Notes under the pieces: generated by a model | The model's input: only the letters and a program-made list of their open reading frames with translations | The model's database searches: none | Told to the model about the DNA's origin: nothing | NCBI GenBank assembly: GCA_964645795.1 | Contig: CAZYCL010000001.1 | Coordinates: forward strand, 31,194-95,193 | DNA length: 64,000 bases | Direction: 5' to 3' | From: an uncultured Planctomycetales bacterium | GTDB taxonomy: Bacteria; Omnitrophota; Gorgyraeia; Gygaellales; Profunditerraquicolaceae | Translations under genes and position numbers: made by a program | Part shown: positions 1-49,800 of the stretch, in pieces | How the letters are laid out: each line of letters begins with the position of its first letter | Numbering within the stretch: the stretch's first letter is position 1

Positions 1-152
1 CTACCTCTAACTAGAATTATTATAAAATATACATAATTTACGGCTTAATTTCAATGGGACTAAATGGGACGGAATAGGACATTAGAGAATACGCTCTGGG
101 GAGGAAATCTAGCAGGAATTCTTTGGGATTGATAGCGTTCAGATAGGCTTAC

Positions 153-545
153 TTATAGATAAGAGATTTGTTCTTTAGTAATATCAAAAGTATTTTTGAT
201 ACATTTTATAATCTCATTCATTCTTTCTTCACGAATACAGTATCGAAATCTGAAACGTCCTTTTTTTTCTTTTTCTGTGCCTTCTGCGTAAGTAAAAGGA
301 TATATTTGATTAAACTTAATCCAAGTTGGCAGTGGAAATCCTTCAGTATTTGGCGCGATAAAAAAATAACCATTATCAGCGTAGCACCCGGGTCTGTCGT
401 ATCTGTCTTTTTGTTTTGAAGTAGTTAGAACAGCTATGAAGGGTTTTTCTGCTGTAGCGTTGTTTAAGATTACGAAAAGCTTATCGCCTAGTTCACCGTC
501 CGCGAATTGGAAGTCTTCGCAGAAGAAAACGTCGCCACGTTTCAC
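153..545 (-). CDS. Putative toxin of a type II TA pair. The N-terminal RGDV..G.E..K.FVIL...TTS pattern resembles the MazF/PemK (Kid) fold
   Basis: 130 aa ORF overlapping the upstream ORF's stop by 4 nt. The N-terminal motif arrangement resembles MazF/PemK. It lies downstream of a Panacea-domain gene in a low-GC segment. Confidence 0.5.
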   Translation of the reverse strand: MKRGDVFFCEDFQFADGELGDKLFVILNNATAEKPFIAVLTTSKQKDRYDRPGCYADNGYFFIAPNTEGFPLPTWIKFNQIYPFTYAEGTEKEKKGRFRFRYCIREERMNEIIKCIKNTFDITKEQISYL

Positions 546-1087
546 GTAAATATTTTCTCAAAAGTGTTAATTTCTTTTCGTAGCTCTTCGTAATCAGAAG
601 TGCTGATCGAATTTTTAGAACCGTCCAAAGCTAAAGCGTAGTCTATTTGAGCGCCTTGCCCCTTAGAATCAATTGTTTTTTTCCACGGTTCATTTTTTAA
701 ATGGCTTGAATCAACCATAAGATCGGCGTCTGCTTCTCTAAAGATATACGCTACGCGTTCAATGATCTTGAGCTCGCGTTTTGTGAAGTAAATATCGTCA
801 AATTTCTTTTTTACTACGAATTTCCAATTATCTACTGCACCGCAGACATCAATCTGTGCTTTAAGATCGTCTTTAGGCTTCTTGAATTCATAATATAATT
901 CACACGGCACGGGCCCGTGTTTCCAAGCCTCATAGACTTGTCCGGTAATAGATTTGCCAGTCTCTTTAAAGTGTAGGAAATCGGCAAAATAAAGTAACTT
1001 AAACAGCTTCGTCTTATGACACTTCTTCGTGTTCTTAACGAAGTAAACTATAAGATTTAGCAGTTTTTCTCTGTCTCTGTTAATCAT
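542..1087 (-). CDS. Panacea/DUF4065 domain protein (SocA-like antitoxin)
   Basis: 181 aa. The motif YFADFLHFKETGKSITGQVYEAWKHGPVP is typical of DUF4065 phage-associated/Panacea antitoxins. It sits directly upstream of, and overlaps, a small toxin-like ORF. Confidence 0.65.
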   Translation of the reverse strand: MINRDREKLLNLIVYFVKNTKKCHKTKLFKLLYFADFLHFKETGKSITGQVYEAWKHGPVPCELYYEFKKPKDDLKAQIDVCGAVDNWKFVVKKKFDDIYFTKRELKIIERVAYIFREADADLMVDSSHLKNEPWKKTIDSKGQGAQIDYALALDGSKNSISTSDYEELRKEINTFEKIFT

Positions 1088-1374
1088 AATCTTAAATATT
1101 TAATATCAATCTTAGATAAAGTATACACTAAACTAAGCAGTTAAGAAATAGCAAAAAGGACAGCTGAGAAAGCCCTTACTACACCCTCTATTGTTATTAT
1201 CGGCAGTTGGCAAGGTTAACTTTAGCATGGCCTCCCTGTCACCATTTTGTCACTACTTTTTGTCAGATTTAACTAATTTCAACTAACTTCAGCTAAATCA
1301 ATTATCTATCTAACCTATTACTGCTCAATGAACTATCAATGATTTCAATATGTTAGAGTAAGAACAAAATCGGG

Positions 1375-1412
1375 TTGCGAACGAGGTGCTCTCCCAGCTG
1401 AGCTACAGCCCC
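1375..1412 (-). pseudogene. Truncated tRNA-like 5' half (acceptor plus D-arm plus anticodon stem 5' side, tRNA-Ala-like GGGGCUGUAGCUCAGCUGGGAGAGC)
   Basis: The minus-strand sequence GGGGCTGTAGCTCAGCTGGGAGAGCACCTCGTTCGCAA matches a canonical tRNA 5' half. No complementary anticodon stem 3' side or T-arm follows. Confidence 0.45.
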
Positions 1413-1476
1413 GAATTTTTGCTGCGCAAAAATTCGGTCCTGCTGCTACCCGAAGCTTTTGTCCAGACAGCAGGAC
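1411..1476. repeat. Two adjacent perfect palindromes: CCGAATTTTTGC-TGC-GCAAAAATTCGG (1411-1437) and GTCCTGCTG...CAGCAGGAC (1437-1476)
   Basis: Read directly from the sequence. The pair abuts the tRNA-like fragment. Neither hairpin has a canonical terminator U-tract. Confidence 0.6.
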
Positions 1477-1566
1477 CTAAGATACATTAAAAATAAGGAA
1501 AATTTATAATCCGAATCAATGAAATATACGGCTTTCTACTTTACCACAATTCAAATAACTTGGCAA

Positions 1567-2217
1567 TTAATTCGTCGAAACGGATGGCATGTAGAGGCGG
1601 GCGTGCATCGACACCGAAGGATTCCCCATGGAACCGCAGCTTCCGCTTGCTCCCGTCGCATCCCAGCAAGCGGTAATCTTGACGTCAAGGTAATTATTGA
1701 CCGAATTATAGCGCAGCTGCGTAGGCTGGTTAAAATCGCCGCTGTTAATCACGCTAAAATCCCCCAGAATGAATGAATTTGTTGAGCCCGGCCTTCCTCT
1801 GGTCAAAACCTCATAAGACCCGGAACCGACGCTATCATAGTACCAGATCTGATAATTGGCGGGATGATACCTGTAACCAAGCTCTCTATCGGAGCCGTCC
1901 CGCATGCCGTTCGGGTTCTGGTCTACCCAGACCCTAAGCGAATTCTCCCCTGCGATAGCCGTAAAGTTCAACGGCGCAGCGCCCGGATCCCCCACCGCCC
2001 CTCCCGATGAAGCGGTGCCCGTAATGTTTTTTTTCATATGCTCGATCACGAACGTTAATACATTCTGAAGCTGCGCGCGCCTTTCACTGTCCTGGGCGTG
2101 GCCCCTGGTGAACAGGTCGATGCTAAAAAAGCTTAAGACCAAGACCCCCAAAAGCATGATCGCGATGACTAATTCGACAAGCGTAAATGAAGAATGGTTG
2201 AGGCGGCGCATAATCAT
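1567..2217 (-). CDS. Prepilin-type N-terminal cleavage/methylation domain protein (minor pilin/pseudopilin)
   Basis: N-terminus HSSFTLVELVIAIMLLGVL has the class III signal with the invariant Glu. Last gene of the pilin block. Confidence 0.7.
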   Translation of the reverse strand: MIMRRLNHSSFTLVELVIAIMLLGVLVLSFFSIDLFTRGHAQDSERRAQLQNVLTFVIEHMKKNITGTASSGGAVGDPGAAPLNFTAIAGENSLRVWVDQNPNGMRDGSDRELGYRYHPANYQIWYYDSVGSGSYEVLTRGRPGSTNSFILGDFSVINSGDFNQPTQLRYNSVNNYLDVKITACWDATGASGSCGSMGNPSVSMHARLYMPSVSTN

Positions 2218-6545: not shown

Positions 6546-8126
6546 TCAGCGTTTTATCGCGCTTTCAAAGTTGTCCAGCGATGTCCCGATCGCGGAGCTC
6601 CGGTCAAAACCGGAAACCGTCCCCTGCTCTCTGTCAGCAAACGATATGGCGTTCTGCGCCAGCCTTGCATTCCCTTCTTTGATGATCCTGGGCGTGATAA
6701 ATACTAACAGCTCCCTCTCCTTGCCTTTATCCCTGTTCTTATGCCTGAAAAGGCTCCCAAGGATAGGCACGTCTCCCAGAAGCGGGACCTTGGTAATGAT
6801 CTCGGTAGCCTCGTTACGGATGAGGCCGCCCAAAATCACCGTTTCGCCGTCCTTGACCCTTATCACGGATTTCGTAGTCCTCTCTTCCGGGTCCTTAAAG
6901 TAGGTGCTGGTGCTGCCGGATACCAGGAATGTGCTGGTGGATGTGTCCTTTACGGTCGGCACGACAAACATGGTCACTTCCCCTGTCTCCATGTTTATCT
7001 GAGGAGTTACCCTTAAACGCACGCCTGTTTCCATTCTCTCCGGCGTAGTGGTCTCGCTGGTAGAGCCGCCGGTAACAACCTGGGTCTGCACGCCTATCGT
7101 CTCCTGAGTGGCGATCTTGATCTCGGCGGTTTCGTTATTCAAAGTCAGAATTCTGGGACGGGCTAAATATTTTGTGTCGGTTTGCGTTTTCAAAAAATCA
7201 AGTATTATCTGATAACCCGAGCTGTTAACCGAGACGCTTCCGGCCTCAAAATGCCCGGGGACATCACTAGCAGCCTTGGAAACCTGGCTGCCTCCGGGTA
7301 TAAGGCCTCCGAACGGAAACTTGGTAAAACGCGTGGCCCCGGCAAGATTCAGGGTAAGCGGGGTCTGGCCGTATTTAAAACCCAGCTTGTCCACGAGGTT
7401 CTTGCTAACATCCAACATCTCAACCTCAAGCATGACCTGAGGCGCGGCCACGTCGATAGCGGCGATAGTAGTGGCTATAACATCCATCTTTGTTGGTGAA
7501 TCCATAACAATCAGGCTGTTGGTACGGTAATCTTCGATGACTATCCCGTCTTTAGACAGAAGTCTTTTGACAACGCTGGTTATACCCGACTCTTCAGCCG
7601 TCTTCCATCTTCCTTCCGTAGTCGTAGTCCCGCTCGACTCCTCTGATTCGGAAGAGCTTGAAGACGATGAGCCGGTTCCGCCTAACTGAGTGCCGAGTTC
7701 GCTCAACAATGACGAAGTTGAAACGCTGGCATATTTTAGGTAAAAGACCCTGGTGACTACTTCCGCCTGCGGTTTTCCGAGGTCCTTGACCAAGAATATC
7801 CTGGCATTTCTATCAAGCTCATAGGTCAGGTTATTGGCCTTAAAAAGCTTGTCCATGGCGTACTCAAGGGGCACCTTGTCCATATATAGCGTGACCTTCC
7901 TGTCTTCCACGTTCTGGGAGGCAATAAAATTCAGCCCCGATTGCATGGAAAACAGCTTAAGGATATCCTTAAGGCTGGCGTCTTTGAAGTCCATGGAGAT
8001 GGTAATCTTGTCGCCGGGGCCGAGCATATCCGACTCAGGCGGGTCGGCATTTATGGGATACCCGCCTGACACAAGGGAGAAGCTCAAGAATAATGCAAAA
8101 AAACGGTATAAGATCTTCATGTTCAT
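6546..8126 (-). CDS. pilQ: Secretin PilQ/GspD family. The probable start is the internal Met (MNMKILYRFF), because the ORF's first Met at 8231 would overlap pilP
   Basis: It has a signal peptide. The C-terminal secretin signature is ILGGLIRNE...VPLLGDVPILGSLFRHK...LLVFITPRII. A Ser/Thr-rich linker is present. Confidence 0.85.
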   Translation of the reverse strand: MNMKILYRFFALFLSFSLVSGGYPINADPPESDMLGPGDKITISMDFKDASLKDILKLFSMQSGLNFIASQNVEDRKVTLYMDKVPLEYAMDKLFKANNLTYELDRNARIFLVKDLGKPQAEVVTRVFYLKYASVSTSSLLSELGTQLGGTGSSSSSSSESEESSGTTTTEGRWKTAEESGITSVVKRLLSKDGIVIEDYRTNSLIVMDSPTKMDVIATTIAAIDVAAPQVMLEVEMLDVSKNLVDKLGFKYGQTPLTLNLAGATRFTKFPFGGLIPGGSQVSKAASDVPGHFEAGSVSVNSSGYQIILDFLKTQTDTKYLARPRILTLNNETAEIKIATQETIGVQTQVVTGGSTSETTTPERMETGVRLRVTPQINMETGEVTMFVVPTVKDTSTSTFLVSGSTSTYFKDPEERTTKSVIRVKDGETVILGGLIRNEATEIITKVPLLGDVPILGSLFRHKNRDKGKERELLVFITPRIIKEGNARLAQNAISFADREQGTVSGFDRSSAIGTSLDNFESAIKR

Positions 8127-11790: not shown

Positions 11791-12087
11791 TTAAGCGCCG
11801 GCTTCTTTCTTGTTGTAATTCGAGCACCTTGGGCACTTCGAAATAACCTCGTCCTTGACTGAAATATAGGTATAGGCACAGATCAAGCAGTGCCATACAA
11901 ATCTCTTCTCGATCTTAAACGCAGGTTTTTTAAGGTTTTCATAATAGATAAGCGATATGAAAGCCGCCGTGACGATCAATGTGAACGCTGATATTGCCCA
12001 ATAGAAGTCCAGTTTAATCATTGCCTTCCGAGAGTTCGATCTTAACCGTCTGCCACTCTGAAGCCTTAAAAGCTTCCCTATGGGCAA
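11791..12087 (-). CDS. Small membrane protein with a C-terminal zinc-ribbon (C..C...C..C). The start is possibly the internal MIKLDF
   Basis: It has a TM helix and the motif WHCLICAYTY...CPRCSNYNKK. Confidence 0.35.
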   Translation of the reverse strand: MPIGKLLRLQSGRRLRSNSRKAMIKLDFYWAISAFTLIVTAAFISLIYYENLKKPAFKIEKRFVWHCLICAYTYISVKDEVISKCPRCSNYNKKEAGA

Positions 12088-12676
12088 AGAGGTAGTTGAG
12101 GATATAGCGCTTGCACAGCAGGTCAGCTTCCAGATTGCCGGAAGATACCTTTCTCTTTACCACAGGTAGCATCATTGATTCGGAAACCGTAAGCATATTA
12201 AAAGCCAGCTCTACGTGGGCCGTCTGCCGGTCCTTGAAGTAAAGCCTGAAGCTCGACGGAAGAATGGGGTGGAAAACAAATACCGGAGGCCTTGCCTTCT
12301 GCCTGACGAAATATTCAAGAGACTCACTAAAGGCATGATCCTGCTTGACACTACCCGTATCAACGAAATAAAGGGGCTTGAGTACATAAGCAGCCATTAT
12401 CCTGGTGTGCTCCCGGTATTTTCGGCCCGCAACGGACCGGTCCATGAGCTTCAGGCTTATTGACCGCAGGAAATCTGAAGCCGGCCCTTGCCTTGCTGTA
12501 TATGAACCGGTTCCGGCAGATTCTTTCAGTTCGAAATCAGGCAGGATCCTGCCAAGAAACCGCACGCTTAGGGCCCGGGGAAGAGGTGGCCTGACAAATG
12601 AAAAAGCCAGGAGGCTGAATACCGACAGATGGACGAACAAAGAAAAAGACAGGGCGTTCTTCAAGAAAAGCTTCAT
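12014..12676 (-). CDS. Hypothetical N-terminally anchored protein in the position of TonB/TolA, next to exbBD
   Basis: 220 aa with an N-terminal TM/signal segment. It shows no recognisable TonB C-terminal signature. It directly follows exbD. Confidence 0.45.
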   Translation of the reverse strand: MKLFLKNALSFSLFVHLSVFSLLAFSFVRPPLPRALSVRFLGRILPDFELKESAGTGSYTARQGPASDFLRSISLKLMDRSVAGRKYREHTRIMAAYVLKPLYFVDTGSVKQDHAFSESLEYFVRQKARPPVFVFHPILPSSFRLYFKDRQTAHVELAFNMLTVSESMMLPVVKRKVSSGNLEADLLCKRYILNYLFAHREAFKASEWQTVKIELSEGND

Positions 12677-12677
12677 C

Positions 12678-13082
12678 TTAACGGTTAGTAGCGATGTTTA
12701 GGTGTGTGATGCCTTTGGCTTTAGCCAGATCGCAGATCTGAGAGATCCTGCCCAGCGAAGCCTTCTTATCGGATTTGACTAACAAGGCGTACTTCCTGGC
12801 GCAGAGCTGCTCAAAAAGACGGCCAAGCTCTTCAATGCTGACCTGCCTGCTGTTTAAGTATATGTCATCCGCTGAGTTTACGGACAATACTATATTCTCG
12901 TAGATCATGCCGTCCGAGGTTACAACTCTGGGCAGGCCAAGCGAAAGACCCCCTCCTAACAGCATAAGGCCGCAGGCCATCGCCAGAAAGATCAGCAGCA
13001 GAAAGACTGTATTGATGAACGGGATAACGGACACCTGGCTTGGTCCCGGTAGGTTTTGAGCCCTGGGTCTAAACCTCATCAC
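12678..13082 (-). CDS. exbD: Biopolymer transport protein ExbD/TolR
   Basis: 134 aa with a single TM helix (VIPFINTVFLLLIFLAMA) and a periplasmic domain. It is downstream of exbB. Confidence 0.75.
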   Translation of the reverse strand: MMRFRPRAQNLPGPSQVSVIPFINTVFLLLIFLAMACGLMLLGGGLSLGLPRVVTSDGMIYENIVLSVNSADDIYLNSRQVSIEELGRLFEQLCARKYALLVKSDKKASLGRISQICDLAKAKGITHLNIATNR

Positions 13083-13091
13083 AACCCCCGA

Positions 13092-13718
13092 TCATTCCGT
13101 TATCAGGTTCAGAAAATCCGAAGACGCCATCTCTATGTCGCGCGCTATCGACTGGACGCGGCCGGAAAAATAAGCGTGGGCCACAAATACCAGGATAGCC
13201 AGAGTAAGACCGGAGATCGCCGGTATAAAAGCTTCCCATATGCCGAGGATAAGGCCTGCGGCCAGGACAACATCATTACCCTGGATACGTGCGCCTACTG
13301 CTTGAAAGCACCTGGCCAAAGCAGTCAAGCTCCCCAGAAACCCTAAAAGCGGCAAGATGTTGAAGATTATCGCCAGAATATTAAGGTTCTTTTCAAGCCC
13401 CGGGAGCTCGTAATCCGCGCTGTCTTCCATCGCCTCCCTTATCTGGGAACGCGGCTGGTCGTACCTGAGGAGCCCGGCCTTAAGGATATTGGCCAAAGGC
13501 AGCCTTGCCTTTTCGCATAGATCCAGGGCTTCTTTTATATCGTGCCTCTTGATCTTCTCGAGGACATCGCCCAGGAACCGGGGCGTATGTTTTTTCAGGT
13601 AATAAAAATATCCGAACTTGTCTATTATCGCCGCAAGCGCCAGAACCGAACAGAGCAGGATCGGCCACATAAACACCCCGCCCATAAGCATCAGCCTCCA
13701 TAGATTCACTGTCTCCAT
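13092..13718 (-). CDS. exbB: MotA/TolQ/ExbB proton-channel family protein
   Basis: 208 aa with three TM segments and the conserved C-terminal region (LTALARCFQAVGA...GIWEAFIPAISGLTLAILVFVAH). Confidence 0.75.
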   Translation of the reverse strand: METVNLWRLMLMGGVFMWPILLCSVLALAAIIDKFGYFYYLKKHTPRFLGDVLEKIKRHDIKEALDLCEKARLPLANILKAGLLRYDQPRSQIREAMEDSADYELPGLEKNLNILAIIFNILPLLGFLGSLTALARCFQAVGARIQGNDVVLAAGLILGIWEAFIPAISGLTLAILVFVAHAYFSGRVQSIARDIEMASSDFLNLITE

Positions 13719-13733
13719 GATCGCACCTCGCCT

Positions 13734-16232
13734 CTATTTATATTTGGTGTTCGCAGTTATCCAATCAACGCGCTCTTCGGCGTACTTAGACTCCTCTGCC
13801 CCGCTGGAAATCACCTTCCTGTAAACAGCCAGCGCCTCACGGAACTTCTCCCTGGACTCATGGATCTGAGCGACCCTTAGGAGCGCCTTCACATTCAGGG
13901 AATCGTCTTCCCCATGAAGATAGGTAACCTTCAAATACTCCTCTACGGCTTCATGGAACATGTTCTGCGCCTGCAGTACCTCGGCTATTTTGAACTGCAG
14001 GACCGGCATCTCCTTAAGCGGGGCCATCTCCAGACTCTTGCGATAGTAATCGAGAGCCTCTCGGTAATTTCCGAGTTTGAAGTATATATCCGCCATTTTC
14101 GGATAAATGATATGCGCAAAGTTAGGATAGGAGCTCAAGACATCTTTGTAAGAATTCAAGGCGTAGTCGGTACTGCCTTGCCTTAAATGGATGTCAGCGA
14201 TGGCAATGGAAGCCTTGGCCGCCGAGTCCGCTCCGGAGAGGCTTACAACCATATTAAGCTTCTCTATGGCCTCGCCGAACCGCCCCTCCTCTGCCAGTAT
14301 CGAACCAAGGACGTAATAAGCATCAACGAGCAGGTTACTCTGCCCAAAATCGTTTATCAAGGAGGAAAAATACCTTTTGCTTACATCTAAATCGTTATGC
14401 CTGTAATAGTATTCTCCGAGCCACCAGATGACCTCCGCGGTAAGACCAGACTGCGGATACTTGGTCCGTAAGGACTTAAAACGTTTTAAGGCTTCCTCCT
14501 CCTGCCCCATCTGATAATAGCAGTCGGCGATCTCGTATTCGGCTTTCTGCATCAGCTCGTTATCCTGGCCGAACTTCTTCATAACGTTCTCAAAGGCCGT
14601 TATCGCCTCGGGGTACTTGCCGAGGTTGAAAAAGCTCGACCCCAATAGATACAGGGCCTGAGGCTTTAAGCTGCTGTCTTTAAAATCGGCCTGAAACCCT
14701 TCGAATACTTCGCGGCTGGCATTGTAATCCTGTTTCTGGAAATAAGCCAGGCCAAGGGCATAAACGCCTTCGTCTAAAAGCTTAGACCCGGGGAAATTGT
14801 TCTTCAAGGCAAGGAACATGGTGATAGCCGCATCGTAATTTGAAGATTTAAGCATGCTTATGCCCAATTGATACTGGACATAGTCGCCGTAAAAGCTGTC
14901 GGGGTAGTCGATCAGTATGGCGTTGTAAGTTTCCCTGGCCTTCTCATAATCTCCCGAGTCCTGATAGGCATCGCCTATCTGACAAAGCGCGCTTACTTTT
15001 ATTATCTTGTCATCGGTTCCTTTGACGATCTTCTGGAACTCTTTTATCCCCTCCCTGAACTCGCCCTGCTTTAAGTAAGCCCAGGCAAGCCCGTAATGCA
15101 ATTTATCGACAAGGTCGGTCGCTATGCCCGGGCCCCATTCTTTTTTCAAGGCCTCTTTATAGGTATTTACCGCTTCTTCGTAAGAAGAGAGATTATAAAG
15201 CGCGTTGGCCTTGCCGGAGTAGGCCTCTAAAAGGATCGGCTGATCGCCCAGCCCCGCATCCAGTATCTTATCATATAGCTCCCTAGCCTCCGATGACCTG
15301 CCGGTATCCGTAAGGAGCGTCGCCTTTGCTAACATCAAAATGTACCTGCTCCTGTCGTCGAGCTGTGCGGCCTTTATTTCTTCGAGCGATCTTTGAGCGT
15401 CATCGTAACGCTTTAACTTAATATACGACCAGCCCATGCCCAGGCCGCAAAGGGCTTTAAGCTTAACGTCTTTTGTGGAAGCGATCGCCTTTGAGTAAAG
15501 ATTGACGGCCTCGTTAACATTATTGAGGTAATACTCGGCCTCAGCCAGGTAAAAGTTGACATACTCCAAACGCTGGCCATCCCTGGAATACGTCTTTAAG
15601 TGGGTCATGGCTTTTTCTCTGAGGCCCGGGTAGTCTTTTAGATTATAAAGGCATTCGATGGTCTTGAACGAAGAATCCTGGGCCTGTGACTCCTTAGGAT
15701 ACCTGTCCTCAACAATCTTGAAATAGCCGCAGGCCTCGGCGAATTTACCTTCCTGGAACAGGCACCAGCCCAGCGAATAATACGAAGCGGGGACATAGGC
15801 CGAGTTGGGGAACCTTTCGGTTATTTGCTTATAGTAATCAGCGGCTTTTTTCAGGTTATTGCCTTTAAAGTGGGTCTCCGCCAGCCAATACAGGACGGCA
15901 TCCTCCAGGCGGCCGGCATACTTTTGATCCAGCAGGCCTTCAAGCCTGCTCAGGGCTTCGCTGTATTTGTTCTGCTGGAACAGGGACCTGGCAATCAGAA
16001 GCTCGACCTCTGCCTTACGGCTTGAAGCCGGATAATTCTTAAGGAAACGCTCCAGCAGCCCTATGCTTACCTCATAAAAACCGTCCTCAAAGGCCTTTTT
16101 GGCGACGAACAGCGACTCTTCCTCTTTGGCGTTATTTACCTGGGCATAACAGGTCTTGACCGGGACCTGCTGCGCCACAGGCAGCAAAAGCATGAGCGTA
16201 AAACAACATAATATGGCTGCGAGTCGATTCAT
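13734..16232 (-). CDS. Secreted multi-TPR repeat protein (YbgF/CpoB-like context)
   Basis: 832 aa with a signal peptide and more than 15 TPR-like units throughout. It is upstream of exbBD. Confidence 0.85.
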   Translation of the reverse strand: MNRLAAILCCFTLMLLLPVAQQVPVKTCYAQVNNAKEEESLFVAKKAFEDGFYEVSIGLLERFLKNYPASSRKAEVELLIARSLFQQNKYSEALSRLEGLLDQKYAGRLEDAVLYWLAETHFKGNNLKKAADYYKQITERFPNSAYVPASYYSLGWCLFQEGKFAEACGYFKIVEDRYPKESQAQDSSFKTIECLYNLKDYPGLREKAMTHLKTYSRDGQRLEYVNFYLAEAEYYLNNVNEAVNLYSKAIASTKDVKLKALCGLGMGWSYIKLKRYDDAQRSLEEIKAAQLDDRSRYILMLAKATLLTDTGRSSEARELYDKILDAGLGDQPILLEAYSGKANALYNLSSYEEAVNTYKEALKKEWGPGIATDLVDKLHYGLAWAYLKQGEFREGIKEFQKIVKGTDDKIIKVSALCQIGDAYQDSGDYEKARETYNAILIDYPDSFYGDYVQYQLGISMLKSSNYDAAITMFLALKNNFPGSKLLDEGVYALGLAYFQKQDYNASREVFEGFQADFKDSSLKPQALYLLGSSFFNLGKYPEAITAFENVMKKFGQDNELMQKAEYEIADCYYQMGQEEEALKRFKSLRTKYPQSGLTAEVIWWLGEYYYRHNDLDVSKRYFSSLINDFGQSNLLVDAYYVLGSILAEEGRFGEAIEKLNMVVSLSGADSAAKASIAIADIHLRQGSTDYALNSYKDVLSSYPNFAHIIYPKMADIYFKLGNYREALDYYRKSLEMAPLKEMPVLQFKIAEVLQAQNMFHEAVEEYLKVTYLHGEDDSLNVKALLRVAQIHESREKFREALAVYRKVISSGAEESKYAEERVDWITANTKYK

Positions 16233-41367: not shown

Positions 41368-41877
41368 CTAAAACCTCTCCCAATGCAATAATTCTGCCAG
41401 CGGCTTTTTATCCTTATGCGAAGGCCCGGCTGCATCAGGGTAGCCGAGCGCGATGAGGCTTACAAGCTTAAGCCTCGCTGGCGCAGCCACAAGGGCTGAG
41501 ACCCTTGAGCAGTAATCCTTCTTATCCCCGGCTATCCAGCAGGAACCGACCCCCAGCGCCTGAGCCGCCAGCAGGATGTTCTGGGTGGCTGCCGAGCCGT
41601 CTTCCAAGTAATACTTGGTGTCATCGCAAAAAACCATGACACAGGCAGCAGCCCCGGAAACGAACCTGCCGTTCTCGGCGAGCCCGGAGATCTCTGACAT
41701 CACCTTTTTATCCGTCACCGCCACAAACTGCCAGGGCTGGACATTCCTGGCGGTAGGGGCCAAACGCCCCGCATCGCAGATCTGCTCCAGAACGTCTTTG
41801 GGGATTGGCTTATCTTTAAAACTGCGGCTGCTGCATCTTTTCCTGATCGCCTCCAAAGCATCCATTATCCCTGCCAC
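41368..41877 (-). CDS. Nitroreductase family protein
   Basis: RCSSRSF...PTARNVQPWQFV signature. Confidence 0.8.
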   Translation of the reverse strand: MAGIMDALEAIRKRCSSRSFKDKPIPKDVLEQICDAGRLAPTARNVQPWQFVAVTDKKVMSEISGLAENGRFVSGAAACVMVFCDDTKYYLEDGSAATQNILLAAQALGVGSCWIAGDKKDYCSRVSALVAAPARLKLVSLIALGYPDAAGPSHKDKKPLAELLHWERF

Positions 41878-42248
41878 CTCTCTTTCAGCTTCTCATCCAG
41901 GGCTTGAGGCTTCAAACTCCTATCTACGCAGACCATGGTAGTCTTTGCCCTGACAATAAGCTTGCCGTGCTGATTGGTTATCTCGTGCTCAAACTCTATG
42001 CGTACGCTCGTCATATTGGCTATGCGCACGCTTACCTCCAATGTATCTCCGTATAAAGCAGGCGCCTTATAATCAACCTCCTGACGCGCCACCACAAACA
42101 ACGTCCCGCTATCCGCCAACTCCTTTACCGGCGTGCCCCTTTCAGCGAAAAACTCAGTGCGCGCTTCTTCCAGGTATTTAAGATAATTGGCATAGTAAAC
42201 CACTCCCCCGCAATCGGTATCGTGGTAATAGATACTTATCTTCATCAT
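41865..42248 (-). CDS. Acyl-CoA thioesterase (YbgC/4HBT hotdog fold)
   Basis: YYHDTDCGGVVYYANYLKYLEEAR N-terminus. Confidence 0.8.
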   Translation of the reverse strand: MMKISIYYHDTDCGGVVYYANYLKYLEEARTEFFAERGTPVKELADSGTLFVVARQEVDYKAPALYGDTLEVSVRIANMTSVRIEFEHEITNQHGKLIVRAKTTMVCVDRSLKPQALDEKLKERWQG

Positions 42249-46890: not shown

Positions 46891-49800
46891 TTACTGAAGG
46901 GGTTTTTCCCAGGCCGCGATATAACGCTTGGCCTGCTCTACATCCGGATCGTTCGGGGCAAGGGTTATATACTTCCTTAGGTGCATCAGCGCCCTGGTGC
47001 GGTCCTGCATCTGCTCGCCGTATAAAACTCCCAGGTTATAAAGCGCCTCGGCATCTTCCGGGTTAGCCAATAGCACCTTCTCAAACTCCGCAACTGCCTT
47101 CATGTAATCCCGGTTCTGGCTATAAAGGACGCCGAGGTTATAGTGAAGAGTGGCATTCTCCTTAAGGGCGCTGGTCTCCTTCATCAGCTTATACTCGTGC
47201 TCCAACAACCTATAAGCTTTATGCAACTGCTCGTAATCCGTCCTCATCTTCTTAATGGTATCGGAGAGCACCCTGTTCTGGCTTTCTGATTCCCTGGCCA
47301 GCTGGTTATACTCCTGCATGCGGCTATTCTTTTCCATCTGCGCGCCGTCCAACTCGCTCTTTAAGAACGCTGCCTTTTGCTGAAGGGCTTGGTTGGTCTC
47401 TTCAAGCGCCAGCCTCTTGTTCTCAAGGCTATCCTTCTGCTGATTTAACCAGCGCAGCGACTCCTGGGCGTTCTGCAGGTCCTTGCGTAACTTTTCCAGC
47501 TCGCTGCTTAAGCCAGCGGTGACCGCTTCCTTCTGGGCCTTTAACTGTATCATCTGGGTGTTCAGCGCTACATTCGACTCTTCTTTCTCCACCCGCAGCT
47601 TGGCTAACTCAGCGTTCAGGCGGTTTATCTCGGAATCTTTCTGGAGGAGGTTCTCGTCCTTCTGGGCCTGCAGTTCGTCAAGCTCCTGTGCGCGCATAGC
47701 CTTGAATTGCGAAAGGGTCTCCTTAGCCTGTGCGGCCTCCCTCTGGAGAGCGGCGACCTGCTGATTCAGGCTCAATAGCTGGTTATTGGAGTCCTGCTTC
47801 TGACGGGTCATCTCGACTATTTGCGCCTGAAGGGCGACCACCTGATCGGATAACTTAGCATACTCCTTGCGCAGCGACTCTTCCTGTATGGCCGTAGTCT
47901 GGAACCTGCGTTCGGCATCGCTTGAGCGCTTCTCCAGCTCTATGAACTTATCCATCAGCTCTTTCTTTTCCCTTGCCCAGCCCTCGCCTGTCCTTGATAA
48001 ACCCGAAAGCTTGTCTTCCGCGGTCTTTGCTGCATACTGCAGGACCTGGGCCTGAGTTTCCAGGGCAAGCTTCTGATTCTCTAAATCCTTGATCGTTGCC
48101 AGCAGGTCGCGCTTCTCTCCTTCAACATCGTCTTTCTGCCGGCTGTATTGAAGCATGGAATCCTGCATATCCTGGACCGCTTTCTGATAACGCGCGATCT
48201 CCGAAGTAAATCCGGCGGCCTCCGCATCTCTCTGCTGCTTTAGTTGATTGAGCTGGGTGAGGAGATTGGTAACATCCTCTTGCCTCTTTGCCTTAATCTC
48301 ATCGCGCTGCTGCCGCAGCTGCGCCAGTTCGTCCTCACGCTGCTGTAGCCTGCCTGCCAGCCTCTCCAGCTCCTGATCCTTCTGCTTCTTCGTATCGTCC
48401 AGACGGCTCTTTAGGATAGCCGACTCTTCCTTCTTCTGGCCCCTAAGCTGCACAAGCTGCTCATTGAAGAACTCCTGGGTGCTCTGAAGGTCTTTCTGCA
48501 TCTGGGCGTTTTCCGCAGCCAGCGCCTTCAAATCGGCTTCTCTGCGCTCAGCCAACAGCTGCATCTGGGCTTTCAGCTGGGTTATCTCCTGTTCCTTCTC
48601 GGCGTACTGCTGGGCCTTTTCCTGCTTGGCTGCTGCCAGCTCCTGGCTTAGGATATCCAACTGCCCCTGCGTTTCCTGAAGGCTTGCGACTATGTCGCCC
48701 TTTTCTTTTTCAGCCGCTTTAAGCTGCTCGACCAATACGCTTACCTGCTGATTCAAATCCTGGCCCTGCTTATCCAGGCCCGCCTTCTGATCACACAGCT
48801 CCTGGTGTTTAACCATCAGCTGACGGTAGTTATTATCGATATCGTTCTTTTCGTTGTTAAGCTGGCTGAGTAATTCGGTCTTCTCCTTGACGTCTTTGCG
48901 CAGCTTGAATATCTCCTCGTTGAGGTCCCTGAGCATTGTTTCTTTCTGGCTGTTGAACTGTGCCAGCTCGGCGTCACGCTGCTTCTCTAATGCTGCGATA
49001 TCGCCGTCCCTCTTTTCTCGCGCAAGGCTTACCTGTTCCTTAAGCTCTGTGATCAGGGCCTCGCTCTGAAGGCGCAAGTTTGCCAGGTCCTGCTCGATCC
49101 TTGCCTTGGCGTCGCCGGTCCTTACCATCTCCTGATTAAGCTTCTCTATCTGCTTCTGCCTGTCGTTCAATAGAGTCTGGAACTCCTGCTCTTTCTGGCT
49201 GCCGGAACGCGAAAGCTGCTCATTACGTTTAGTGATATCCGCGAAATCCTTTTCCAGCTGCGCGAGCCTGGTTTTCAAGGCCAGGTTTTCCTGCTGCACT
49301 GAGTCTTTTGACGAAGAAACGGTGTTGACCTTGGTTTCCGCGGCTATGAGCGCATCACGCAGGTCTTTGACCTGCTTCTCAAGCGTAGCTTTCTCGGGGA
49401 CAAGCTGCGCTATCCTGTTGTGCAGGGAAAGCTTCTCCTGTTGGCCGGATTCGTAGTTCGCGGAAACCGTCTTTATCTTCTCATCCGAAAGCTTAACCGC
49501 TTCCTGAAGCCCCTTGATTTGTTTTTCCAGAAGAGACTTCTCCTGTGCGAGGTTAGCTGCCTGGAGCCTGGTATCATCGAGCTCTTTCTGCTGCCTGATA
49601 AGCGAATCCCTTAAAGCCCTGGTATCGGACTCCTGACGGCTCTTTAGCTGCGCCAGCTCTTGGTCTTTCTGGGATTTGAGCTTAGCAAGCTCGAGCCCGA
49701 GCCTGGTCAAGTCCTGTTCTTTTTGCGCTCCTGACTGGACAAGCTGGTCGTGCCGCTTAAGGGCCTCGGAGAGCTGCCTATTCAGCTGCGACACCTTATC

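What the first reader, a model, noticed from the sequence alone, without database searches (positions are those of the whole stretch)
1..1500. Low-GC segment at the window edge with a Panacea-domain antitoxin/MazF-like toxin pair, a truncated tRNA-like 5' half and twin palindromes: probable mobile-element or island boundary
The first 1.5 kb is markedly AT-richer than the remaining 62 kb. It encodes an overlapping two-gene cassette. The upstream 181-aa protein has the DUF4065/Panacea signature (SocA-like antitoxin). The downstream 130-aa protein has a MazF/PemK-like N-terminal pattern (RGDV..G.E..K.FVIL...TTS). Panacea antitoxins are known to pair with many unrelated toxin folds, so this toxin partner may be an uncharacterised pairing. 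Immediately beside the cassette lies a 38-nt tRNA 5' half (GGGGCUGUAGCUCAGCUGGGAGAGC...) with no 3' half. Two perfect palindromes abut it. This is the kind of scar left at integrase att sites. It argues that the TA cassette arrived on an integrative element bordering the conserved pilus operon.
Basis: partly seen in the sequence, partly recalled or inferred. Interest (0 to 1): 0.55.

Follow-up and report, generated by a model that had tools for sequence, protein, structure and literature searches.

The report
Integrated element edge in tRNA-Ala gene
The left 1.4 kb of the window is the edge of foreign, AT-rich DNA that was inserted by site-specific recombination into the anticodon loop of a tRNA-Ala gene of an Omnitrophota bacterium. 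It carries an already-known kind of toxin-antitoxin pair, so the finding is real but largely ordinary.

Summary

- **Composition:** bases 1-1374 have 35.7% GC against 49.4% for the rest. An identical public contig extends the low-GC DNA at least 1.4 kb further left.
- **Antitoxin:** the 181-aa protein is a Panacea (PanA) antitoxin.
- **Toxin:** the overlapping 130-aa protein fails the Pfam PemK cut-off, but its confident model matches only MazF/Kid structures.
- **tRNA piece:** bases 1412-1374 (minus strand) are positions 1-39 of tRNA-Ala(CGC). No 3' half lies in the window or the extension.

Comparison supports the island reading. In Omnitrophota relatives the same pilus operon is followed by an intact tRNA-Ala(CGC) and a conserved gene block. 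Two independent metagenome contigs break the tRNA at the same point (positions 38-40). One of them runs into 31%-GC DNA with a tyrosine integrase, and its flank is homologous, in register, to window 1237-1354.

This is an att junction of the minority type that displaces the 5' tRNA fragment. The far end, with the predicted regenerated tRNA and any integrase, lies outside the window.

Two claims fail. PanA paired with a MazF-like toxin is published and widespread. The palindromes belong to the host spacer and are not integration scars.

The parts
153..545 (-). PanT toxin, 130 aa, GTG start, MazF/Kid fold. It belongs to a family that has no Pfam or NCBIfam model.
   Evidence: Pfam PemK_toxin gives only E 0.029, and NCBIfam and PADLOC give nothing. 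Exhaustive phmmer finds 395 cluster representatives at E<=1e-3. The AF2 model has pLDDT 96.7, and the top 50 Foldseek PDB hits are all MazF/Kid/YdcE/MoxT, with TM 0.55-0.73. K22 and T42, conserved in at least 90% of members, align with Arg25 and Thr48 of B. subtilis MazF in hhalign.
542..1087 (-). PanA antitoxin, 181 aa: a Panacea domain (residues 28-136) plus a C-terminal extension that ends in a helix at 163-180.
   Evidence: Pfam PF13274 at E 2.1e-21. The NCBIfam SocA equivalog scores 58 bits, below its 190-bit cut-off. It has 156 homologues, some named SocA family, Panacea or phage-associated protein. The AF2 model has pLDDT 91, and no solved structure matches it.
1088..1373 (-). Non-coding element-side arm of the att junction (P'-type arm). 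Bases 1237-1354 are homologous to the arm of the L140 element.
   Evidence: blastn shows 74.6% identity over 118 nt, at the same offset from the tRNA break, E 4e-15 (alignment A2). L148's 43-nt flank shares TTTTTC.TAAC..ATTGA.
1267..1296 (-). Three tandem 10-nt repeats (TAGTTGAAAT-like) inside the arm. They are candidate arm-type binding sites for integrase or an excision factor.
   Evidence: TRF reports period 10 and 3.1 copies. L140 has the equivalent array at 7670-7696. The binding role is inferred.
1237..1253 (-). Direct repeat GTGACA-N5-GTGACA inside the arm.
   Evidence: Read from the sequence. L140 has GGTTACA-N4-GGTTACA at the aligned position, which TRF reports as period 11.
1374..1412 (-). 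Displaced 5' fragment of tRNA-Ala(CGC), positions 1-39. The break lies just 3' of the anticodon loop.
   Evidence: Searches give exact identity to the 5' part of intact Omnitrophota tRNA-Ala(CGC) genes. ARAGORN and Rfam call no tRNA here. L140 and L148 have the same break point.
1411..1437 (-). AT-rich perfect palindrome (12-bp arms, 3-nt loop) that overlaps G1 and G2 of the tRNA. It is a feature of the host spacer.
   Evidence: L154 has an analogous palindrome abutting an intact tRNA.
1436..1477 (-). GC-rich hairpin (10-bp stem, 22-nt loop) followed on the minus strand by GAAUUUUUG. It is a likely terminator of the pilus operon or a structure in the tRNA leader.
   Evidence: The consensus terminator scan did not call it (its definition allows loops of only 3-8 nt). 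The function is inferred.
1567..2217 (-). Last pseudopilin gene of the conserved type IV pilus-like operon. This is the host flank.
   Evidence: N_methyl motif. Synteny with L006, L047, L084, L102 and L120. Operon content from L123: PilM/N/O, secretin, PilB, PilC and pilins.

Best explanation
Window 1-1412 is one junction (BOP'-type) of a genomic island or prophage-like element. A tyrosine integrase inserted it into the anticodon-loop region of the tRNA-Ala(CGC) gene, which in Omnitrophota sits just downstream of a type IV pilus-like operon.

**Anatomy.** The host's original 5' part of the tRNA (positions 1-39) stayed next to the pilus operon. It is followed directly by the element's arm, which is about 290 nt long and carries phased 10-nt repeats. 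The first cargo is a panA-panT toxin-antitoxin operon. More low-GC DNA with PEP-CTERM protein genes follows.

**What follows from the rule for tDNA islands.** The element should carry its own copy of the tRNA 5' part at its other end. The intact tRNA would then be rebuilt there, next to the conserved AmmeMemoRadiSam/RsmE/MiaB block. This step is predicted and was not seen.

**The cassette.** The TA pair most likely works as published PanAT modules do. PanT is a MazF-fold endoribonuclease, with Lys22 and Thr42 at the catalytic Arg and Thr positions, that blocks translation. PanA binds and neutralises it. The module stabilises the element or acts in phage defence.

**Shown and inferred.**
- Shown: the truncation, the synteny break, the homologous arm, the integrase in the parallel element, the domain and fold assignments, and the conserved gene pairing.
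- Inferred: RNase activity, neutralisation, the role of the arm sites, and regeneration of the tRNA.
For: **Ancestral state.** Five GTDB loci (four labelled Candidatus Omnitrophota, one labelled Planctomycetales) and 12 metagenome loci have the pilus operon followed by an intact tRNA-Ala(CGC) on the same strand. In all 10 metagenome loci with enough downstream sequence, the conserved memo/RsmE/MiaB block follows at unchanged GC.

**Recurrent break.** The window, L140 and L148 all lose tRNA identity at positions 38-40.

**The L140 parallel.** GC drops from 42% to 31% at the break and stays low for at least 8 kb. The region holds a Phage_integrase protein (E 5e-24; PHROG integrase, 1e-32) and a phage-type HNH endonuclease.

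**Homologous arm.** The element-side flanks of the window and L140 are homologous in register. They share tandem-repeat arrays.

**Composition.** GC is 0.357 against 0.494 and extends leftwards.

**Known configuration.** Islander mapped 159 islands with a displaced 5' tDNA fragment and 3760 with a 3' fragment. Anticodon-centred attP sites are common.

**The TA cassette.** The toxin family lies directly downstream of PanA in L127, L128, L234 and L237 and in 41 of 54 viral contigs. These contexts include integrases, primases, restriction-modification systems and phage portal genes.
Against: - No integrase, second att copy or tRNA 3' half appears in the 2.8 kb of island that can be read.
- The visible cargo to the left is PEP-CTERM/HAF-repeat secreted proteins, which are not typical of phages.
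- The first 20 or so nt after the break are not conserved between the window and L140, so no core-type site is evident.
- No free-element attP was found in viral contigs.
- The toxin misses the Pfam PemK threshold and has Lys where MazF has the catalytic Arg.
- Logan k=31 contigs break on both sides of the 39-nt segment. The link from pilus operon to fragment to island therefore rests on the window's own assembly and on the two parallel contigs.
Confidence: 0.75

Rival explanations
1. The tRNA gene simply decayed through a random deletion or rearrangement. The low-GC DNA to the left is native, AT-rich accessory DNA of this genome, and the TA cassette is an ordinary chromosomal module. No site-specific integration took place.
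For: No integrase or att repeat is visible in 2.8 kb. PEP-CTERM genes look like host envelope genes. This genome is rearranged relative to its relatives: the thioesterase/nitroreductase pair lies 40 kb upstream instead of downstream.
Against: Three independent lineages break at tRNA positions 38-40. Two of them share a homologous flank at the same offset, and one holds an integrase. A random deletion would not repeat the same end point and the same flanking sequence.
Confidence: 0.1
2. The element integrated as proposed but does not rebuild the tRNA. Lysogeny therefore inactivates tRNA-Ala(CGC), and GCG codons are read by another isoacceptor. Alternatively, the island is an old remnant whose integrase and distal junction have been deleted.
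For: Neither L140 (8 kb of element) nor the window plus L001 (2.8 kb) contains a 3' half or a second core copy. The visible cargo in the window is not phage-like.
Against: tDNA islands as a rule restore the target gene (PMC4383910). In every sample, the Logan graph branches at both ends of the 39-nt segment. This fits a second copy that continues into G40, although another species could also supply that copy.
Confidence: 0.13
3. The junction is an assembly artefact. Two unrelated contigs were joined at the 39-nt tRNA segment that they share.
For: Logan contigs from 4-5 runs stop exactly at window 1383 (pilus side) and 1403 (TA side). The segment is therefore a repeat in the k=31 graph.
Against: The order pilus operon, then 5' fragment, then low-GC element is seen in two further independent assemblies, L140 and L148. 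The junction of fragment plus CCGATTTTG is itself present in four Logan runs. The pilin, PanA, toxin and PEP-CTERM proteins all map to one NCBI contig of 352,447 nt.
Confidence: 0.02

Closest known systems
tDNA-integrated genomic islands and prophages, 5'-fragment and anticodon-centred class (Islander; Williams 2002 sublocation classes)
   Same: A tRNA gene is split at the anticodon loop. A displaced tRNA end fragment marks the island edge, composition shifts abruptly, and a tyrosine integrase lies in the parallel element L140. The arm carries tandem repeats similar to the lambda P' arm sites (the lambda comparison is from my own knowledge).
   Different: The displaced piece is the 5' part, as in 159 of 3919 mapped islands. 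The regenerated tRNA and an integrase have not been seen for this genome. The target, tRNA-Ala(CGC) next to a pilus operon in Omnitrophota, appears in none of the papers I read, and I did not search for it specifically.
PanAT toxin-antitoxin systems with MazF-like PanT (Kurata et al. 2022, clusters T5/T6, e.g. the Pseudomonas moraviensis pair)
   Same: A stand-alone Panacea antitoxin with no N-terminal domain sits upstream. A small 'hypothetical' toxin overlaps it by 4 nt, and its MazF relationship shows only through profile or structure comparison.
   Different: I could not compare sequences with the published T5/T6 members, so membership of those clusters is untested. This family has Lys at the MazF catalytic Arg position and two invariant cysteines, C54 and C115.
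MazF/PemK/Kid endoribonucleases (PF02452)
   Same: The fold matches (Foldseek TM 0.55-0.73, top 50 hits). The N-terminal RGDV..G...K..V(I/L)L and TTS motifs align with the MazF catalytic loop regions.
   Different: The protein scores below the Pfam threshold. Its partner is PanA rather than a MazE/AbrB-type antitoxin. Lys replaces Arg.
SocAB (type VI TA of Caulobacter)
   Same: The antitoxin contains the SocA/Panacea domain.
   Different: The NCBIfam SocA equivalog scores 58 bits against a cut-off of 190. The toxin has a MazF fold, whereas SocB is, from my knowledge, a replication-clamp-binding toxin.

Membership tests
Panacea (PanA) antitoxin, PF13274 | Panacea domain scoring above the Pfam gathering score | tested here: met
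   77.4 bits against a cut-off of 25.7, E 2.1e-21, covering profile positions 1-113 of 113
Panacea (PanA) antitoxin, PF13274 | Encoded in a conserved two-gene unit with a toxin gene | tested here: met
   The genes overlap by 4 nt in the window. The same toxin family lies directly downstream in L127, L128, L234 and L237 and in 41 of 54 viral contigs.
Panacea (PanA) antitoxin, PF13274 | Neutralises the cognate toxin | not testable with these tools
   This needs a co-expression assay. No complex prediction was available.
MazF/PemK toxin, PF02452 | Sequence match above the Pfam gathering score | tested here: not met
   15 bits against a cut-off of 23.1, E 0.029. None of the 101 other family members hits PemK_toxin at E<=0.1. 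A profile search against PDB sequences finds nothing.
MazF/PemK toxin, PF02452 | MazF/Kid/CcdB-type SH3-like barrel fold | tested here: met
   The AF2 model has pLDDT 96.7. The top 50 Foldseek PDB hits are all MazF/Kid/YdcE/MoxT, with E from 3e-4 and TM up to 0.73.
MazF/PemK toxin, PF02452 | Catalytic Arg and Thr/Ser (Arg25 and Thr48 of B. subtilis MazF, from my knowledge) | tested here: inconclusive
   hhalign (probability 44%) aligns T42 with Thr48 and K22 with Arg25. K22 and T42 are each conserved in at least 90% of the family.
MazF/PemK toxin, PF02452 | Sequence-specific endoribonuclease activity and toxicity | not testable with these tools
   Requires experiment.
tDNA-integrated genomic island (Islander definition) | A tRNA end fragment at one island boundary, in the orientation of the tRNA gene | tested here: met
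   The fragment 1374-1412 matches positions 1-39 exactly. It sits where relatives have the intact gene.
tDNA-integrated genomic island (Islander definition) | An intact, regenerated tRNA gene at the other boundary | not testable with these tools
   The far end lies left of the window. Only 1431 nt more could be recovered, and no tRNA lies in them.
tDNA-integrated genomic island (Islander definition) | A tyrosine integrase gene inside the island | tested here: inconclusive
   None lies in the 2.8 kb visible for this genome. One is present 4.5 kb inside the homologous-arm element of L140 (E 5e-24).
tDNA-integrated genomic island (Islander definition) | Breaks in synteny and composition against relatives with an empty site | tested here: met
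Group I intron in a tRNA anticodon loop, or a split tRNA | Intron RNA structure and a 3' exon downstream | tested here: not met
   Rfam finds nothing relevant at E<=10 in 1-2000. No 3' half lies within 2.8 kb (window) or 8 kb (L140). The break lies outside the anticodon loop proper.
Intrinsic terminator (hairpin 1436-1477) | A GC-rich stem followed by a U-run | tested here: inconclusive
   A 10-bp stem followed by GAAUUUUUG, in a stable fold. The consensus scan did not call it (its definition allows loops of only 3-8 nt, and this loop is 22 nt).

The most novel reading that the evidence does not exclude
Omnitrophota may host a lineage of phage-like elements that target the anticodon loop of tRNA-Ala(CGC) and leave the 5' part behind without rebuilding the gene. 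Lysogeny would then remove a tRNA isoacceptor. The orphan 5' fragment, still behind its native leader hairpins, would be expressed as a tRNA-half-like RNA beside a MazF-fold RNase module. That module belongs to a clade that is not annotated in Pfam or NCBIfam and has Lys at the catalytic Arg position and two invariant cysteines.
Probability: 0.1. Interest if true: 0.55.

Novelty: new member of a known kind. Interest (0 to 1): 0.3.

Why it matters
- **Mobile elements of an uncultured phylum.** The window adds a clear case of an integrative-element family in Omnitrophota, where mobile elements and their att sites are poorly mapped. The case rests on comparison across three independent lineages.
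- **A practical marker.** A pilus operon followed by tRNA-Ala(CGC) is a conserved landmark. A break at tRNA position 39 flags an insertion.
- **An annotation gap.** A MazF-fold toxin family with about 395 clusters at 50% identity is almost always found next to PanA and often on viral contigs, yet it has no Pfam or NCBIfam model and is annotated as hypothetical.
- **Limits.** None of this changes current understanding of TA systems or of tRNA-targeted integration.

Tried and rejected
- **Intron or split tRNA.** Rfam at E<=10 gave only noise. No 3' half or T-arm motif turned up anywhere.
- **Walking left.**
  - Exact-protein look-ups of PanA, the toxin and the PEP-CTERM protein returned only short Logan contigs. 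All of them stop at the same points.
  - The 352-kb NCBI contig that carries these proteins was not returned.
- **Metagenome scan with the last pseudopilin.** No relatives were found. The PilC scan then succeeded.
- **Free-element attP in IMG/VR.**
  - The 17-nt arm motif gave 65 hits, none with further arm or tRNA similarity among the 15 best-ranked that I read, so I take them as chance.
  - The L140 integrase and its capsid-like protein had no viral relatives.
- **A second att copy.** None lies in L140 or in the window plus L001.
- **A conserved third gene upstream of PanA.** The roughly 195-aa ORFs in L127 and L128 are unrelated to each other.
- **Toxin sequence searches.**
  - The word-index search found only the toxin itself.
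  - PDB sequences, NCBIfam, PADLOC, PHROGs, and tblastn against GenBank phages and PLSDB plasmids all gave nothing.
- **PanA model against the PDB.** No match.
- **Palindromes as att scars.** Rejected, because a like palindrome abuts an intact tRNA in L154.
Full report
**1. What is in the sequence**

Bases 1-1374 have 35.7% GC, against 49.4% for bases 1413-64000. No other 1374-nt window falls below 42.9%.

Two overlapping minus-strand genes fill most of the segment:
- The 181-aa gene (542-1087) is a clear Panacea/SocA-like antitoxin: Pfam PF13274, E 2.1e-21. It falls far below the NCBIfam SocA equivalog cut-off.
- The 130-aa gene (153-545, GTG start, 4-nt GTGA overlap) hits PemK_toxin only at E 0.029, below threshold. 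It hits nothing in NCBIfam, PADLOC, PHROGs or the PDB sequences.

On the minus strand, bases 1412 to 1374 read GGGGCTGTAGCTCAGCTGGGAGAGCACCTCGTTCGCAAC. This covers the acceptor strand, the D arm, the 5' anticodon stem, the loop TTCGCAA (anticodon CGC, alanine) and C39. The sequence then departs from any tRNA. ARAGORN finds no tRNA in the whole window. Rfam finds nothing relevant.

Two perfect palindromes lie just upstream of the fragment, at 1411-1437 and 1436-1477. The only correction is that the fragment is 39 nt long, not 38.

**2. The low-GC DNA continues beyond the window**

Exact-protein look-ups found Logan contigs from several sequencing runs. L001 is identical to window 1-1403 and runs 1431 nt further left. 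That stretch encodes a 385-aa PEP-CTERM beta-propeller-like protein and the start of a HAF-repeat-like secreted protein, at 33-39% GC.

The pilin, PanA, toxin and PEP-CTERM proteins are all recorded on one NCBI contig of 352,447 nt. That contig could not be fetched.

The Logan contigs stop at window 1403 on the TA side and at 1383 on the pilus side. This is what a k=31 graph does when tRNA positions 1-39 occur a second time in the sample with different flanks. The second copy may be in the same genome or in another species; the data cannot tell which.

**3. What the site looks like in relatives**

Every copy that could be read continues as an intact tRNA-Ala(CGC).
- In five of these loci the same type IV pilus-like operon (PilB, PilC, pseudopilins) lies directly upstream of the tRNA on the same strand. 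Four are labelled Candidatus Omnitrophota and one Planctomycetales. PilB and PilC are 60-74% identical to the window's proteins.
- A metagenome scan with PilC gave 37 more loci. Twelve have an intact tRNA-Ala(CGC) 0.8-3.6 kb downstream of PilC.
- In all ten with enough downstream sequence, a conserved block follows at unchanged GC: an AmmeMemoRadiSam radical-SAM gene, a memo-like gene, RsmE and a MiaB-like gene.
- The ancestral arrangement is therefore pilus operon, then tRNA-Ala(CGC), then that block.

**4. Two independent parallels to the window**

L140 and L148 have the pilus operon followed by a truncated tRNA-Ala(CGC). It ends at position 39/40 in L140 and at position 38 in L148.

In L140:
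- GC drops from 42% to 31% exactly at the break and stays there for the 8 kb available.
- The low-GC DNA encodes a tyrosine recombinase (Pfam Phage_integrase, E 5e-24; PHROG integrase, 1e-32) and a phage-type HNH endonuclease.
- None of the conserved downstream block is present.

The element-side flanks of the window and L140 are homologous at the same offset from the break: 74.6% identity over 118 nt, E 4e-15, window 1237-1354. Both flanks contain about three tandem 10-nt repeats and an adjacent direct repeat. L148's 43-nt flank shares the first conserved words.

The same break point in three lineages, a shared arm and an integrase together argue for site-specific integration, not random decay. 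They identify window 1088-1373 as the element's arm.

**5. Which kind of att junction this is**

The Islander paper states the rule. The island's attP carries a fragment of the target tRNA gene, so integration rebuilds the gene and displaces an end fragment. Of 3919 mapped islands, 3760 displace the 3' fragment and 159 the 5' fragment. A 5' fragment lies upstream of the rebuilt gene. Anticodon-centred sites are common (PMC4383910).

The window fits the minority 5'-fragment configuration. The prediction is that an intact tRNA-Ala(CGC), and then the conserved block, lie at the island's far (left) end. I could not test this:
- No second core copy, 3' half or integrase occurs in the 2.8 kb visible here or in the 8 kb of L140.
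- Walking further left failed.
- No free-element attP was found in viral contigs.

A decayed remnant, or an insertion that leaves the tRNA broken, remains possible.

**6. The palindromes**

They lie between the last pseudopilin gene and tRNA position 1, which is the host side. L154 has an intact tRNA, yet it carries a very similar AT-rich perfect palindrome ending in G1 and G2 of the tRNA, with a GC-rich hairpin upstream. The palindromes are therefore native spacer features. They are most likely a terminator of the pilus operon or structures in the tRNA leader (the consensus terminator scan did not call them). They are not integration scars.

**7. The toxin-antitoxin pair**

*Family size and conservation.* An exhaustive phmmer search found 395 cluster representatives of the toxin at E<=1e-3. 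In an alignment of 102 of them, C54 and C115 are invariant. G4, G17, K22, T42, G53, F70 and T74 are each at least 90% conserved. No other member hits any relevant Pfam family.

*Fold.* The AlphaFold model is very confident (pLDDT 96.7). Its top 50 PDB matches are all MazF, Kid, YdcE or MoxT.

*Catalytic positions.* Profile alignment to B. subtilis MazF puts K22 on Arg25 and T42 on Thr48. The template sequence and the catalytic roles of those residues are from my own knowledge.

*Pairing.* The toxin family sits directly downstream of a PanA gene in L127, L128, L234 and L237 and in 41 of 54 IMG/VR contigs that encode a PanA relative. The surrounding genes include integrases, a D5-type primase, restriction-modification systems and a phage portal. 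One locus, L236, has PanA alone.

*PanA itself.* It models well (pLDDT 91), with a C-terminal helix at 163-180 beyond the Panacea core. No solved structure resembles it.

*Likely mechanism (inferred).* The pair is a PanAT module in which a MazF-fold RNase is held in check by direct binding of PanA. It serves to stabilise the element or to defend against phages.

**8. Comparison with the literature**

Kurata et al. 2022 (PMC8832971) list PanA paired with PemK toxins. They also list toxins with no CDD hit that HHpred places in the EndoA/PemK/MazF family. The P. moraviensis and B. ruminantium toxins specifically inhibit protein synthesis, and the P. moraviensis T6 pair is marked as a validated TA.

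Their clusters T5 and T6 contain such toxins. The T6 rows I read have PanA without an N-terminal domain, antitoxin-toxin gene order and spacings of -4, -1 or +6. This matches the cassette here. The kind of pairing is therefore known. Whether this family is T5, T6 or a further cluster could not be checked without their sequences.

**9. Verdict**

The finding is real, and its main interpretation is supported by independent comparative evidence. It belongs to well-understood categories: a tRNA-targeted integrative element with a TA cargo.

The less common points are:
- the displaced 5' fragment;
- a target site not mentioned in the papers I read, in an uncultured phylum;
- a sizeable MazF-fold PanT family without a Pfam or NCBIfam model.

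Interest is modest.

Noticed in passing
window 41368-42248 (- strand): A thioesterase-like gene and a nitroreductase-like gene are 61-63% identical to the genes that lie about 4 kb downstream of the tRNA in L102; the thioesterase is also matched in L067. Here they lie about 40 kb upstream of the pilus operon. RsmE and memo-like genes are absent from the window. This genome is therefore rearranged around the site.
   Followed up: partly
window 1421-1439 and 1699-1717: A 19-nt inverted repeat (17 of 19 complementary) links the AT-rich palindrome to the 3' part of the last pseudopilin gene. By rough estimate this is more than chance would give in 2 kb. It is unexplained.
   Followed up: no
L154 about 14690-14797: An intact tRNA-Ala(CGC) is preceded by a perfect AT-rich palindrome (TAAAAATTTTGT-TTC-ACAAAATTTTTA) that ends in G1 and G2, with a GC-rich hairpin upstream. 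The layout matches the window. It may be a conserved terminator or leader device in this spacer.
   Followed up: partly
L140 7594-15563: This is a phage-like element of about 31% GC with an integrase (12080-12865), an HNH endonuclease (12913-13479), a DUF6941 protein and many ORFs with no family. No relatives were found in IMG/VR.
   Followed up: partly
window 153-545 (toxin family, alignment A1): Two cysteines, C54 and C115, are invariant in 102 family members. Canonical MazF has no such pair, as far as I know. They could form a disulfide or a metal site.
   Followed up: no
L236 8001-8567: A PanA gene has no toxin ORF downstream (a 340-nt gap). It lies in a prophage-like region with a portal gene and a YafQ toxin, so it is an orphan antitoxin.
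   Followed up: no
L237 7372-9013 and L238: A NYN-domain (RNase-like) gene sits 5 nt upstream of PanA-PanT, at the edge of an element with a D5-type primase. It may be a third component in some versions of the module.
   Followed up: no
window 46891-52596 (- strand): A 1901-aa ORF is almost entirely coiled coil, with a signal-like N-terminus and TPR repeats at the C-terminus.
   Followed up: no
window 1-64000: ARAGORN calls no tRNA gene anywhere in the 64 kb. The only tRNA-like sequence is the truncated fragment.
   Followed up: yes
L001 1468-2834 (left of window position 1): The low-GC DNA beyond the TA cassette encodes a PEP-CTERM protein with repeated W/N-rich blades and a HAF-repeat-like secreted protein. 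This is unusual cargo for a phage-like element. The window contains no paralogues of them.
   Followed up: partly
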